From assembly GCF_009914755.1 (NCBI RefSeq), contig NC_060947.1: DNA of 64,000 nt; one strand, given 5' to 3'. Below are positions 2,873-7,747 of this stretch, piece after piece (the stretch's first letter is position 1; every line of letters begins with the position of its first letter). Under the pieces are notes generated by a model. It was given only the letters and a program-made list of their open reading frames with translations. It made no database searches and was not told the origin of the DNA. The position numbers and the translations under genes were made by a program. This stretch comes from the human T2T-CHM13v2.0 reference genome, Homo sapiens.

Positions 2873-3626
2873 TTTGGCATGCAGCCTGTCTTTTTATCTG
2901 TTAAGGCAGCAAGACCAAGCTCTACACTGTTATTTGTGGTATGCTTATTGCAAAGAATTTTTATCACTTTCTATGGTATTTGCCATGGTTAGTGGGGTAA
3001 GACAAGGAAATGTCAATATTTTAATTGCAGTAAAGCACAAAAAAAAAACAAGCAAATGCCACAGGAAAGAAAGCAACATTAGGCACTATGCTCAGGAATC
3101 TGAGACCTTTGTTACAAACCGTCAAACCCCAGCATGAGCCTAGCCTTGAAAATGAACATTTCACACCGAGAGGCACTCACTTTTAAAGAAAGTCATGTTT
3201 GAGGTCATAGCTAGTGGACTGTATTGCTTTAATAGGGACTATATAAAAATCATACATTTTCTAAACAAGGGCTGTGGGAATGACTTTGCCTTGACTTGTG
3301 GTGCATTTACCCTGAAAGGAAAACAAGTCAACATGGTTGAGGCTTTCATCAAGCTATAAAAGTTGATGGGGCCAATTATCTCCCTTCTGAAACTCAGCCA
3401 ATATAAAGAGAAGAAAAGAAATGGTTTGGAAATGGAGATAAGGCGATGATAGAGGAATGAGTGGCATCCAGGCAGTCTCTGACTTTCACAGCAGCTCACA
3501 AAGAAGAGGACGCCTTTCTGGGAGAACAAAATTCAACTGATGCCAGTCAGCTTTTATGAAGCATTTTGTGTTTTGATAAGCCTTTGTGTTGAGCCTTGTT
3601 GGGGATGAAATTAAAACACAGGTTTC

Positions 3627-3933
3627 ATTAATTTTTTGAAGGGTTTTTTGTGTCTCTATTTCCTTCAGTTCTGCTCTGATTTTAGTTATTTCTTGCCTTC
3701 TGCTAGCTTTTGAATGTGTTTGCTCTTGCTTTTCTAGTTCTTTTAATTGTGATCTTAGGGTGTCAATTTTGGATCTTTCCTGCTTTCTCTTGTGGGCATT
3801 TAGTGCTATAAATTTCCCTCTACACACTGCTTTGAATGCGTCCCAGAGATTCTGGTATGTAGTGTCTTTGTTCTCATTGGTTTCAAAGAACATCTTTATT
3901 TCTGCCTTCATTTCATTATGTACCCAGTAGTCA
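3627..3933 (-). mobile_element. Inverted 5' segment of L1PA3 (twin-priming inversion)
   Basis: Minus-strand ORF 3486..4112 contains the ORF2 peptide [31 protein letters not shown]...TLQKINE; abuts the TSD at 3613-3626 and the forward L1 at about 3931. Confidence 0.93.
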
Positions 3934-6910
3934 AAAATTAATGAATCCAGAAGCTGGTTTTTTGAAAGGACCAACAAAATTGATAGACTGCTAGCAAGAT
4001 TAAAAAGAAAAAAAGAGAGAAGAATCAAATAGACGCAATAAAAAATGATAAAGGGGATATCACCACCTATCCCACAGAAAGACAAACTACCATCAGAGAA
4101 TACTACAAACACCTCTACGCAAATAAACTAGAAAATCTAGAAGAAATGGATAAATTCCTCCACACATACACTCTCCCAAGACTAAACCAGGAAGAAGTTG
4201 AATCTCTGAATAGACCAATAACAGGAGCTGAAGTTGTGGCACTAATCAATAGCTTACCAATGAAAAAGAGTCCAGGACCAGATGGATTCACAGCCGAATT
4301 CTACCAGAGGTACAAGGAGGAACTGGTACCATTCCTTCTGAAACTATTCCAATCAATAGAAAAAGAGGGAATCCTCCCCAACTCATTTTATGAGGCCAGC
4401 ATCATCCTGATACCAAAGCTGGGCAGAGACACAACCAAAAAAGAGAATTTTAGACCAATATCCTTGAACATTGATGCCAAAATCCTCAATAAAATACTGG
4501 CAAACCGAATCCAGCAGCACATCAAAAAGCTTATCCACCATGATCAAGTGGGCTTCATCCCTGGGATGCAAGGCTGGTTCAATATATGCAAATCAATAAA
4601 TGTAATCCAGCATATAAACAGAACCAAAGACAAAAACCACACGATTACCTCAATAGATGCAGAAAAGGCCTTTGACAAAATTCAACAACCTTCATGATAA
4701 AAACTCTCAAGAAATTAGGTATTGATGGGATGTATCTGAAAATAATAAAAGCTATCTATGACAAACCCACAGCCAAGATCATACTGAATGGGCAAAAACT
4801 GGAAGCATTCCCTTTGAAAACTGGCACAAGACAGGGATGCCCTCTCTCACCACTCCTTTCAACATAGTGTTGGAAGTTCTGGCCAGGGCAATTAGGCAGG
4901 AGAAGGAAATAAAGGGTATTCAACTAGGATAAGAGGAAGTCAAATTGTCCCTGTTTGCAGATGACATGATTGTATATCTAGAAAACCCCATTGTCTCAGC
5001 CCAAAATCTCCTTAAGCTGATAAGCAACTTCAGCAAAGTCTCAGGATACAAAATCAATGTACAAAAATCACAAGCATTCTTATACACCAACAACAGACAA
5101 ACAGAGAGCCAAATCATGAGTGAACTCCCATTCACAATTGCTTCAAAGAGAATAAAATACCTAGGAATCCAACTTACAAGGGATGTGAAGGACCTCTTCA
5201 AGGAGAACTACAAACCACTGCTCAATGAAATAAAAGAGGACACAAACAAATGGAAGAACATTCCATGCTCATGGGTAGGAAGAATCAATGTCATGAAAAT
5301 GGCCATACTGCCAAAGGTAATTTACAGATTCAATGCCATCCCCATCAAGCTACCAATGACTTTCTTCACAGAATTGGAAAAAACTACTTTAAAGTTCATA
5401 TGGAACCAAAAAAGAGCCCGCATCACCAAGTCAATCCTAAGCCAAAAGAACAAAGCTGGAGGCATCACACTACCTGACTTCAAACTATACTACAAGGTTA
5501 CAGTAACCAAAAGAGCATGGTACTGGTACCAAAACAGAGATATAGATCAATGGAACAGAACAGAGCCCTCAGAAATAATGCCACATATCTACAACTCTCT
5601 GATCTTTGACAAACCTGAGAAAAACAAGCAATGGGGAAAGGATTCCCTATTTAATAAATGGTGCTGGGAAAACTGGCTAGCCATATGTAGAAAGCTGAAA
5701 CTGGATCCCTTCCTTACACCTTATACAAAAATCAATTCAAGATGGATTAAAGACTTAAACGTTAGACCTAAAACCATAAAAACCCTAGAAGAAAACCTAG
5801 GCATTACCATTCAGGACATAGGCATGGGCAAGGACTTCATGTCTAAAACACCAAAAGCAATGGCAACAAAAGCCAAAATTGACAAATGGGATCTAATTCA
5901 ACTAAAGAGCTTCTGCACAGCAAAAGAAACTACCATCAGAGTGAACAGGCAACTTACAAAATGGGAGAAAATTTTCGCAACCTACTCATCTGACAAAGGG
6001 CTAATATCAAGAATCTACAATGAACTCAAACAAATTTACAAGAAAAAACCAAACAACCCCATCAAAAAGTGGGTGAAGGACATGAACAGACACTTCTCAA
6101 AAGAAGACATTTATGCAGCCAAAAAACACATGAAAAAATGCTCACCATCACTGGCCATCAGAGAAATGCAAATCAAAACCACAGTGAGATACCATCTCAC
6201 ACCAGTTAGAATGGCAATCGTTAAAAAGTCAGGAAACAACAGGTGCTGAAGAGGATGTGGAGAAATAGGAACACTTTTACACTGTTGGTGGGACTGTGAA
6301 CTAGTTCAACCATTGTGGAAGTCAGTGTGGCGATTCCTCAGGGATCCAGAACTAGAAATACCATTTGACCCAGCCATCCCATTACTGGGTATATACCCGA
6401 AGGACTATAAATCATGCTGCTATAAAGACACATGCACACATATGTTTATTGCGGCATTATTCACGATAGCAAAGACTTGGAACCAACCCAAATGTCCAAC
6501 AATGATAGACTGGATTAAGAAAATGTGGCACATAGACACCATGGAATACTATGCAGCCATAAAAAATGATGAGTTCATGTCCTTTGTAGGGACGTGGATG
6601 AAATTGGGAATCATCATTCTCAGTAAACTATCGCAAGAACAAAAAACCAAACACCACATATTCTCACTCATAGGTGGGAAGTGAACAATGAGAACACATG
6701 GACACAGGAAGGGGAACATCACACTCTGGGGACTGTTGTGGGGTGGGGGGATGGGGGAGGGATAGCATCGGGAGATATACCTAATGCTAGATGATGAGTT
6801 AGTGGGTGCAGCGCACCAGCATGGCACATGTATACATATGTAACTAACCTGCACATTGTGCACATGTACCCTAAAACTTAAAGTATAATAATAATAAATT
6901 TAAAAAAAAA
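3931..6910 (+). mobile_element. L1PA3-like LINE-1, 5'-truncated, disrupted ORF2 (RT and C-terminal domains), 3' UTR, short poly(A)
   Basis: ORFs 4146..4697, 4945..6249 (LFADDM RT motif) and 6313..6684; frameshifts and stops between them; L1 3' UTR ending aagtataataataataaatttaaaaaaaaa. Confidence 0.96.
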
Positions 6911-7236
6911 GAAATTCGTCATTCGAAACATAGTGGAGGCCACAGCAGTCAGGGACATTTCTGAAGCGAGAGTCTTTGATGCCTACGTGCTTCCCAAGCT
7001 TTATGTGAAGCTACATTACTGTGTGAGTTGTACAATTCACAGCAAAGTAGTCAGGAATCGATCTCGTGAAGCCCACAAGGACTGAACACCCCCACCCCTA
7101 TTTAGACCTGCGGGTGCTGCTCCACTTCCCCCACCAAAGCCCTTGTAAGGAGCTAAGTTCTTAAAGACTGGAGACAGACTATTCTCTGGAGAAAAATAAA
7201 ATGGAAATTCTACTTAAAAAAAAAAAAAAAAAAAAA
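6909..7236 (+). pseudogene. RPS26P: 5'-truncated processed pseudogene of ribosomal protein S26 (eS26), codons about 37-115 plus 3' UTR and poly(A)
   Basis: Translates [78 protein letters not shown]; premature TGA 7083-7085, stop 7146-7148, AATAAA 7195-7200, A-tail 7216-7236; intronless. Confidence 0.96.
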
Positions 7237-7747
7237 CACAGGTTTCCTGGTCCTTGCTCTAGAGAAACACAGTGTAATTGGTGAAACCAAGACAAAGATA
7301 TATAAAATAACAAAAGGACATTTACAAAGTGATATGAACTGAAACAAAATATAAATTAGCTTCAAGTATTCAGGAAATGGGAAGTCAAGGAATCACAATA
7401 TGTTGTGTATGTGTATTCACATGTTTAGTGTGACCACTTGTGTCTGTTGGGGCGACAGTGGTGTAGTCATCTGGGAAACAGAGCTTTACCCTAAGGAAGC
7501 ATATGAGCTAGACTGTTGGAGGAAATGGGGCATTCTCTTTAACATTATGAGGAATAGGTGCAGAGGAAAAAATCAAGGTATGTGATGAAAAGGAAATAAA
7601 TCATGCTATTAGGCTAGTGGGCCTTTGTGAGCCAGGCTAGGGTTTGGGAGTTGGACAATGAGCATTCAAAGATTGTCGGTGGGAAAGAAGTTGGATAGAT
7701 CAGTTGAGACTAGTTGAGGAAGAGCTTCAAAGCCCCCAGAGAACATT

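What the first reader, a model, noticed from the sequence alone, without database searches (positions are those of the whole stretch)
3613..7246. One retrotransposition event carrying L1PA3 plus a spliced RPS26 fragment (L1-driven pseudogene hitch-hiking)
Seen: one perfect 14-bp TSD (3613-3626 and 7233-7246) brackets [inverted L1][forward L1 with its own A-tail][RPS26 codons about 37-115, 3' UTR, AATAAA, second A-tail]. No copy of the RPS26 start (aagaaattcgtc) lies at the L1 5' end, so the L1 did not simply land in a resident pseudogene here. Known: L1 transcripts read through their weak poly(A) signal (3' transduction), and RPS26 reads ...I-K-K-F at this point. Inference: if I36-K37 is ATT|AAG as I recall, the junction is itself an L1 endonuclease site, so the source was probably an active L1 sitting inside an older RPS26 retrocopy and using its AATAAA. 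That predicts a source locus and possibly a family of sibling L1-RPS26 chimeras with the same breakpoint. An RT template switch from RPS26 mRNA to L1 RNA is the alternative.
Basis: partly seen in the sequence, partly recalled or inferred. Interest (0 to 1): 0.8.

Follow-up and report, generated by a model that had tools for sequence, protein, structure and literature searches.

The report
L1 joined to RPS26 retrocopy fragment
A 3.3-kb inverted-and-forward L1 copy and the last two thirds of an RPS26 retrocopy lie together inside one target-site duplication on the human X chromosome, an ordinary by-product of L1 retrotransposition whose exact route (carried along by L1, or a later landing in the L1 tail) cannot be settled from one genome.

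Summary
A perfect 14-nt duplication (3613-3626 and 7233-7246) brackets, in order: an inverted L1 piece, a forward L1 piece, a 7-9 nt A run, RPS26 codons 37-115 with its 3' UTR and AATAAA, and a 21-nt A run. The two L1 pieces are contiguous in L1 and overlap by 11 nt, which is the twin-priming signature.

The junction ATT|AAGAAA is a real L1-endonuclease site. Of 54 other RPS26 retrocopies inspected, 11 carry an Alu at exactly this point with their own duplications. None carries an L1.

No source locus and no sibling chimera exists in this genome.

The L1 part and the RPS26 part are equally decayed within error: non-CpG changes 1.6% against 2.8% (p = 0.11), and CpG loss 8/16 against 7/13.

One uninterrupted chr9 retrocopy shares 3 derived substitutions with the fragment (family-wise p about 0.04).

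The L1 3' end, TTT|AAAAAAA, is itself an endonuclease site. Other RPS26 retrocopies demonstrably landed in L1 or Alu tails.

My odds:
- 3' transduction from a lost source: about 0.5.
- Later landing in the L1 tail: about 0.25.
- Template switch: about 0.15.

This is a known kind of event, of modest interest.

The parts
3611..3616 (+). Target site TT|AAAA, where the bottom strand was nicked
   Evidence: Sequence. The consensus TTAAAA is quoted in passages of PMC2836564.
3613..3626 (+). Left copy of the target-site duplication, AAAACACAGGTTTC
   Evidence: D4.
3627..3932 (-). Inverted L1 segment (306 nt). In L1 it lies immediately upstream of the forward segment.
   Evidence: its reverse complement and the forward start map contiguously on another L1 in the window (21412-20752), with an 11-nt overlap., I3.
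3933..6901 (+). Forward L1 segment (ORF2 3' part and 3' UTR), ending in the L1-encoded ...AATAATAATAAATTT
   Evidence: 97% identity to many genomic L1 copies; this 3' end is found exactly in 59 places, and within 2 mismatches in 1907 places.
6902..6910 (+). Internal A run (9 A). The last two may be the AA of RPS26 codon 37.
6909..7215 (+). RPS26 retrocopy fragment: codons 37-115, stop at 7146-7148, 3' UTR. It is intronless across the exon 2/3/4 junctions.
7083..7085 (+). Premature TGA (CGA to TGA, a CpG transition)
7195..7200 (+). RPS26 polyadenylation signal AATAAA, 15 nt before the terminal A run
7216..7236 (+). Terminal A run (21 A). The last four overlap the duplication.
7233..7246 (+). 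Right copy of the target-site duplication
   Evidence: D4.

Best explanation
This is one retrotransposition event carrying an L1 3' transduction.

Inferred route:
1. A full-length L1 had inserted, by its endonuclease, at ATT|AAGAAA inside an older RPS26 retrocopy.
2. A transcript ran through the L1's own AATAAA and its short A tail. It was polyadenylated at the RPS26 AATAAA about 290 nt further on.
3. This L1-RPS26 RNA was reverse transcribed at TT|AAAA on chrX, primed from the RPS26-derived poly(A).
4. A second priming from the top strand inside the L1 RNA (twin priming) produced the inverted 5' piece.
5. The L1-bearing source allele is no longer in the genome. The uninterrupted chr9:30.85 Mb retrocopy may be its empty allele.

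What is shown: the anatomy, the single duplication, the twin-priming geometry, the reality of the endonuclease site, and the similar age of the two parts. What is inferred: the read-through transcript and the lost source.
For: - One 14-nt duplication at a TT|AAAA site encloses everything.
- The L1 pieces are contiguous with an 11-nt overlap.
- The breakpoint is exactly the site where 11 of 54 other RPS26 retrocopies took an Alu in the same orientation, with duplications of 9-18 nt starting at AAGAA.
- Among the 43 other retrocopies with 1 kb or more of flank held, none lacks its 5' end by truncation: 41 start within 25 nt of the mRNA 5' end and the two exceptions are cut by Alus. The only other copy without a 5' half is the partly fetched chr19:35.59 Mb locus.
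- The RPS26 part is not younger than the L1. It has 8/283 non-CpG changes and 7/13 CpGs lost. The L1 has 42/2624 and 8/16. At L1 rates 11.0 changes are expected and 15 are seen.
- The chr9 copy L010 shares 2 of its 5 non-CpG derived states, plus 1 CpG state, with the fragment. The simulated family-wise P is 0.039. Removing these three leaves 12 changes against 11 expected.
- The mechanism is well known (abstracts of PMC9311842 and PMC13009371, seen in the listing).
Against: - No RPS26 copy with an L1 at this site exists in the genome. This rests on scans of the 3' part (60 places), the 5' half (43 places) and the junction, and on the 40 best matches.
- There are no siblings. 0 of 4 L1 tails followed by AGAAATTC continue into RPS26.
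- The excess age of the RPS26 part is not significant (p = 0.11 and 0.15).
- The link to L010 rests on 3 sites. The model assumed uniform sites, and a shared parental allele would give the same result.
- The internal A run is only 7-9 nt, which is short for a recently inserted active source.
- The same anatomy is produced by the two rivals.
Confidence: 0.5

Rival explanations
1. Two events. The twin-primed L1 inserted first, with the 14-nt duplication. Later an RPS26 mRNA was retrocopied into the junction of the L1 3' end and its A tail (TTT|AAAAAAA, a perfect endonuclease site). The cDNA was joined 5'-truncated at the A-rich AAGAAA by microhomology with the oligo(A) overhang. The duplication of this second event is a run of 7-9 A and cannot be seen.
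For: - The L1-encoded end ...AAATTT followed by A's gives TT|AAAA.
- Precedents exist in the same family. L018 (chr7:123.997 Mb) is a full-length RPS26 retrocopy directly behind an L1 3' end, with its own 17-nt duplication made of L1 tail sequence. L009 (chr15) lies in an Alu tail with a duplication of about 25 nt. L028 (chr1:51.86 Mb) reads Alu-A15-RPS26 inside one probable duplication.
- The 2-nt AA ambiguity at the junction fits microhomology joining.
- The absence of a source and of siblings is expected.
- The ages are compatible with a short lag.
Against: - It needs a 5' truncation, which none of the 43 other retrocopies with 1 kb or more of flank shows; the two exceptions there are Alu interruptions.
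- The three clear or probable tail landings are all full length.
- The truncation would have to fall exactly on the family's endonuclease hot spot.
- The RPS26 part is, if anything, more decayed than the L1: 15 changes seen against at most 11.0 expected. A long lag is therefore excluded.
- The sharing with L010 would have to be chance (P = 0.039) or a shared parental allele.
Confidence: 0.25
2. One event with a template switch. ORF2p started on the poly(A) of a free RPS26 mRNA and copied it back to codon 37. There the cDNA end (the complement of AAGAAA) paired with the base of the poly(A) tail of an L1 RNA. Synthesis continued on the L1, and twin priming made the inversion.
For: - There is a single duplication and the two parts have similar ages.
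- The A-rich switch point allows pairing with poly(A).
- No source or sibling is needed.
- Chimeric retrocopies made by template jumps or RNA ligation are documented (abstracts of PMC4476161, PMC2104539 and PMC6789731 in the listing; abstract and passages of 10.1101/2025.02.02.635956).
- Two other loci put an Alu plus A run in front of RPS26 sequence inside what may be one duplication: L028 and chr19:35.59 Mb.
Against: - In the described chimeras the L1 is the 3' partner, copied first, and the other RNA sits 5' of it (abstract, and recalled literature). Here the order is reversed.
- The jump would have to land within 7-9 nt of the base of a long poly(A) tail.
- The slight excess of changes in the RPS26 part and the L010 sharing are unexplained.
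Confidence: 0.15
3. A resident full-length RPS26 retrocopy was hit by an L1 at the hot spot, and the insertion deleted the RPS26 5' half. On this reading the 14-nt repeat is the duplication of the RPS26 retrocopy.
For: The hot spot is real. L1 insertions with target deletions are known (Gilbert 2002, seen only as a reference-list entry).
Against: The deletion would have to end exactly at the boundary between the left duplication copy and the RPS26 5' end, leaving all 14 nt intact. No trace of the 5' half remains.
Confidence: 0.03

Closest known systems
L1 3' transduction (read-through of the weak L1 poly(A) signal into flanking DNA)
   Same: The order is L1 3' end, short A run, non-L1 sequence ending 15 nt after an AATAAA, second A run, all inside one duplication. 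The length (about 310 nt) is typical.
   Different: The carried sequence is itself part of a processed pseudogene. No source locus or sibling can be found, so the defining proof is missing.
Twin-priming inversion of L1 insertions (Ostertag and Kazazian 2001; recalled, seen as a reference entry)
   Same: An inverted 5' piece and a direct 3' piece of contiguous L1 sequence, an 11-nt overlap at the junction, 5 of 6 bases of microhomology between the target end and the internal priming site, and an intact duplication.
   Different: Nothing unusual, except that first-strand priming would have been on a non-L1 poly(A).
Nested retro-insertion at single-nucleotide hot spots of repeated sequences (Levy, Schwartz and Ast 2010, PMC2836564; abstract and passages read)
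   Same: Repeated copies of one sequence take Alu insertions at one position, in sense orientation, at a TTAAAA-like site.
   Different: The target here is a family of processed pseudogenes rather than a transposon family. That study discarded the element ends, so tail landings were not counted there.
Chimeric retrocopies such as U6/L1 (template switch or RNA ligation)
   Same: Two RNA copies are fused head to tail within one duplication.
   Different: The order of partners is reversed, a poly(A) stretch sits at the fusion point, and the breakpoint is internal to the mRNA.

Membership tests
L1 3' transduction | L1 3' end and A run followed by non-L1 sequence that ends in a second poly(A) just after a poly(A) signal | tested here: met
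   A run at 6902-6910, AATAAA at 7195-7200, A run at 7216-7236.
L1 3' transduction | One target-site duplication flanks the L1 plus the carried sequence | tested here: met
   (D4).
L1 3' transduction | The carried sequence is found elsewhere directly 3' of a full-length L1 (source), or in siblings | tested here: not met
   Of 54 other RPS26 retrocopies inspected, none has an L1 at the site, and 0 of 4 candidate short transductions continue into RPS26. A lost or unfixed source is not excluded.
L1 3' transduction | The carried sequence starts at a plausible L1 endonuclease site of the source locus | tested here: met
   11 of 54 retrocopies have an Alu at ATT|AAGAA, each with its own duplication.
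Twin-priming inversion | The inverted and direct pieces are contiguous in L1, with a small overlap or gap, and the duplication is kept | tested here: met
   (mapping on the L1 at 20752-21412), I3 (16 nt, 94%).
Processed pseudogene of RPS26 | Intronless copy of the mRNA with poly(A), and a disabled reading frame | tested here: met
   The fragment is colinear with q141-464 of a full-length copy. The parent gene on C12 is split at q213 and q342. It matches Pfam Ribosomal_S26e and has a stop at codon 95.
Nested insertion into the A tail of an older element | The inner element has its own duplication made of tail sequence | tested here: inconclusive
   Only runs of A flank the RPS26 part. Such duplications are visible in L018 and L009.
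Nested insertion into the A tail of an older element | The outer element is present without the inner one in an outgroup, or the inner one is clearly younger | tested here: inconclusive
   No primate genomes were available. In decay the inner part is not younger: 8/283 and 7/13 against 42/2624 and 8/16.
Template-switch chimeric retrocopy | The L1 is the 3' partner copied first, and the other RNA is fused 5' of it | tested here: not met
   The L1 lies 5' of the RPS26 part. The feature itself is taken from the abstract and from recall.
Template-switch chimeric retrocopy | Both parts arrive at the same time in a species alignment | not testable with these tools
   No multi-species alignment was available.

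The most novel reading that the evidence does not exclude
The window, chr19:35.59 Mb (an Alu plus RPS26 from the same codon-37 breakpoint, with no 5' half) and chr1:51.86 Mb (Alu-A15-full RPS26 in one duplication) would be members of an undescribed reverse-order class of chimeric retrocopies. In this class ORF2p starts on a cellular mRNA and then jumps, at an A-rich site or at the mRNA 5' end, onto the poly(A) tail of an L1 or Alu RNA held in the same particle.
Probability: 0.12. Interest if true: 0.5.

Novelty: new member of a known kind. Interest (0 to 1): 0.3.

Why it matters
The locus has no evident function: the RPS26 frame is broken and the L1 is truncated and inverted. Its value is as a worked example.

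- It shows how one anatomy (element, A run, mRNA fragment, A run, one duplication) can come from three different L1-driven routes.
- It shows that a family of about 60 near-identical retrocopies acts as a natural replicate experiment for L1 endonuclease site choice. One dinucleotide took almost all Alu insertions.
- If the chr9 copy is the empty allele of the source, the fragment is a fossil record of an active L1 that never reached fixation.

Tried and rejected
- Age test. My first count on 800 nt of L1 suggested that the RPS26 part was clearly older (13/800 against 15/309). After extending to 2.9 kb and treating CpG separately, the difference is not significant.
- Source or sibling search. 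Whole-genome DNA search with the junction and fragment returned 41 matches, the 40 best of 70 candidates scored. Pattern scans of the junction, the 3' part, the 5' half and L1 tail plus AGAAATTC found nothing beyond the window.
- Three extra 5'-half places (C1:174.28 Mb, C12:69.40 Mb, C4:60.84 Mb) turned out to be old complete copies.
- Pairwise sharing of derived states. Only L010 stands out among low-divergence copies. The high L039-L057 value is an artefact of Alu sequence in my extraction.
- L093 and L057, which start at q35-38 behind an Alu tail, looked like truncated tail landings. L093 is an Alu insertion with its 5' piece upstream.
- No primate genomes, repeat library or species alignment were available, so the L1PA3 label and the empty site could not be checked.
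- Literature. RPS26P56 occurs in 1 paper, unrelated to this question. Searches found no description of this locus or of the RPS26 hot spot. Supplements of the bioRxiv preprint are closed and might list neighbouring chimeras.
- I did not run complex prediction, structure tools or protein database searches, as they do not bear on the question.
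Full report
**Observation**

The window is chrX of the T2T human assembly (G000:C23). One search shows AAAACACAGGTTTC at 3613-3626 and at 7233-7246. One search recovers the same pair (D4). The bases before the left copy give TT|AAAA, the preferred L1 endonuclease target (consensus quoted in PMC2836564, passages).

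Inside the duplication lie, in order:
- an inverted L1 piece (3627-3932);
- a forward L1 piece (3933-6901);
- nine A's (6902-6910);
- an RPS26 fragment (6909-7215);
- 21 A's (7216-7236).

The fragment translates as KKFVIRN... from codon 37, with a premature TGA at 7083-7085 and the normal stop at 7146-7148. It matches Pfam Ribosomal_S26e positions 37-93. It is colinear with a full-length retrocopy across points where the parent gene on C12 has introns. AATAAA lies at 7195-7200. No other RPS26 sequence is in the window. The L1PA3 label could not be tested.

**The L1 part**

I mapped the reverse complement of 3627-3932 and the forward start 3933-4300 onto an older L1 elsewhere in the window (21412-20752, minus strand). 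The two pieces are contiguous in L1 and overlap by 11 nt (also I3). The target end GGTTTC resembles the L1 sequence next to the internal priming point in 5 of 6 bases (I3). This is the geometry of twin priming (recalled; Ostertag and Kazazian 2001 seen only as a reference entry).

The end ...AGTATAATAATAATAAATTT is encoded by the L1 lineage and is not part of a poly(A) tail. The 27-mer occurs exactly in 59 places, including the window, and within two mismatches in 1907 places. So the L1's own A run here is only 7-9 nt. The L1 end plus tail reads TTT|AAAAAAA, which is itself a perfect endonuclease site.

**The junction is a hot spot**

All full-length RPS26 retrocopies and the parent gene read GCCATT|AAGAAATTC. 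I inspected this site in 54 other retrocopies: 29, 11, 11 and 3.

- Eleven carry an Alu exactly here, in the RPS26 orientation. In each, the RPS26 5' half lies upstream of the Alu, and a duplication of 9-18 nt begins at AAGAA. Three chr2 loci are copies of one event, leaving nine events.
- One more locus (chr19:35.59 Mb) has an Alu abutting the same breakpoint but no 5' half.
- One locus (chr22:32.0 Mb) has a 33-nt insert with a 14-nt repeat.
- Forty-one are uninterrupted.
- None has an L1.

**Source and siblings**

A whole-genome search with junction plus fragment gave 41 matches, the 40 best of 70 candidates scored. Only the window matches through the L1 tail, and the best other copy is 95% identical. 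Pattern scans of the junction, the 3' part (60 places) and the 5' half (43 places) reveal no RPS26 copy split by an L1. Three unexpected 5' halves are old complete copies. Of four L1 tails followed by AGAAATTC, none continues into RPS26. The predicted source and family are not in this genome.

**Ages**

I compared the forward L1 with the column majority of its closest genomic relatives. It has 42 substitutions at 2624 non-CpG sites (1.6%) and has lost 8 of 16 CpGs. Against the family majority, and leaving out three columns that track change in the parent gene, the RPS26 part has 8 substitutions at 283 non-CpG sites (2.8%) and has lost 7 of 13 CpGs.

The difference is not significant: binomial p = 0.11, Fisher p = 1. 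At L1 rates 11.0 changes are expected and 15 are seen, P(>=15) = 0.15. The two parts are coeval within error, and the RPS26 part is certainly not the younger looking one.

The parent-gene states place the fragment in an intermediate class of retrocopies (T at column 263, A at column 283). It does not belong with the youngest class.

**Nearest relative**

L010 (C9:30847414-30847722) is an uninterrupted full-length retrocopy of the same class. It shares three derived states with the fragment: 6942 (a CpG site), 6986 T>C and 7143 A>T. That is 2 of its 5 non-CpG changes. I ran a simulation over the 26 low-divergence copies with uniform sites. A best overlap of two or more arises with P = 0.039. 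Taking these three as inherited leaves 12 changes against 11 expected. This is suggestive but not proof. Site heterogeneity or a shared parental allele would weaken it.

RPS26 retrocopies do land in the tails of older elements.
- L018 (chr7:123.997 Mb) is a full-length copy directly behind an L1 3' end, with its own 17-nt duplication made of L1 tail sequence.
- L009 (chr15) sits in an Alu tail with a duplication of about 25 nt.
- L028 (chr1:51.86 Mb) reads Alu-A15-RPS26-A8 inside one probable 8-nt duplication.

A landing at TTT|AAAAAAA of the window's L1, with an all-A duplication and 5' joining at AAGAAA by microhomology, would give exactly the observed sequence.

Four points count against it:
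- The three precedents are full length.
- In the 43 retrocopies with long flanks, 41 start within 25 nt of the mRNA 5' end. The two exceptions are Alu interruptions.
- The truncation would coincide with the family hot spot.
- The RPS26 part shows no deficit of changes.

**Weighing**

All three routes reproduce the anatomy.
- 3' transduction explains the hot-spot breakpoint without further assumption. It fits the slight excess of changes and the link to L010. It needs a source allele that has vanished.
- The tail landing needs a rare truncation at the right spot and a short lag.
- The template switch needs a reversed order of partners, compared with the described chimeras (abstract), and a jump to the very base of a poly(A) tail.
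- A deletion model needs a deletion ending exactly at a duplication boundary.

I put these at about 0.5, 0.25, 0.15 and 0.03. These odds rest on rough rates that I estimated from the family itself, not on a formal model.

**Comparison with what is known, and verdict**

The locus is a twin-primed, 5'-truncated young L1. The attached RPS26 fragment is most likely a 3' transduction. All the mechanisms considered are described (3' transduction: abstracts of PMC9311842 and PMC13009371; nested hot spots: PMC2836564; chimeras). The defining proof of transduction, a source or sibling, was tested and not met, so I do not file it as a proven member.

RPS26P56 appears in one unrelated paper. Searches found no account of the RPS26 hot spot. 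The finding is a new member of a known kind, of modest interest.

Noticed in passing
L027, L031, L036, L039 (+L082, L083), L057, L078+L100, L079+L096, L080+L097, L081+L098: Eleven RPS26 retrocopies (nine events) carry an Alu at the same dinucleotide, ATT|AAGAA (codon 36|37). All are in sense orientation, with duplications of 9-18 nt. Within this family nearly all Alu insertions use one site.
   Followed up: yes
C19:35584830-35586420 (L102, L095, L076, L101): An Alu with an A-rich tail directly precedes an old RPS26 part that starts at the same breakpoint. There is no RPS26 5' half within 700 nt upstream. An A17 run lies before the Alu and A9 then GAAGAAG lies after the RPS26 end. The architecture is the same as in the window but with an Alu, and it is unexplained.
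   Followed up: partly
L018 (C7:123995935-123999238): A full-length RPS26 retrocopy lies immediately behind an L1 3' end, flanked by its own 17-nt duplication of L1 tail sequence. This is a clear two-event L1-RPS26 adjacency.
   Followed up: yes
L028 (C1:51860264-51863570): Alu, A15, full-length RPS26 and A8 lie between two copies of GCCAYCTA. This is either a tail landing with an all-A duplication or a chimera.
   Followed up: partly
L074 (C22:32003156-32003340): At the same hot spot there is a 33-nt insert of unknown origin, flanked by a 14-nt direct repeat.
   Followed up: no
L093+L099 (C12:69.40 Mb), L057, L039: There are further recurrent Alu sites in RPS26 retrocopies. One is at the A-rich codons 2-5 (with a duplication in L093). 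One is in the 3' UTR near q399-411 (L039 and L057).
   Followed up: partly
Alignment columns 231, 263 and 283 of the RPS26 3' parts: Three non-CpG positions change stepwise with the divergence of the retrocopies. They record substitutions in the parent mRNA and give a relative clock for RPS26 retrocopies. L007 (C8:102.02 Mb) is identical to the parent exons 2 and 3.
   Followed up: partly
window 20752-21412 (-): An older L1 copy, 87-88% identical to the L1 under study, spans the inversion point. It served as the coordinate reference.
   Followed up: partly
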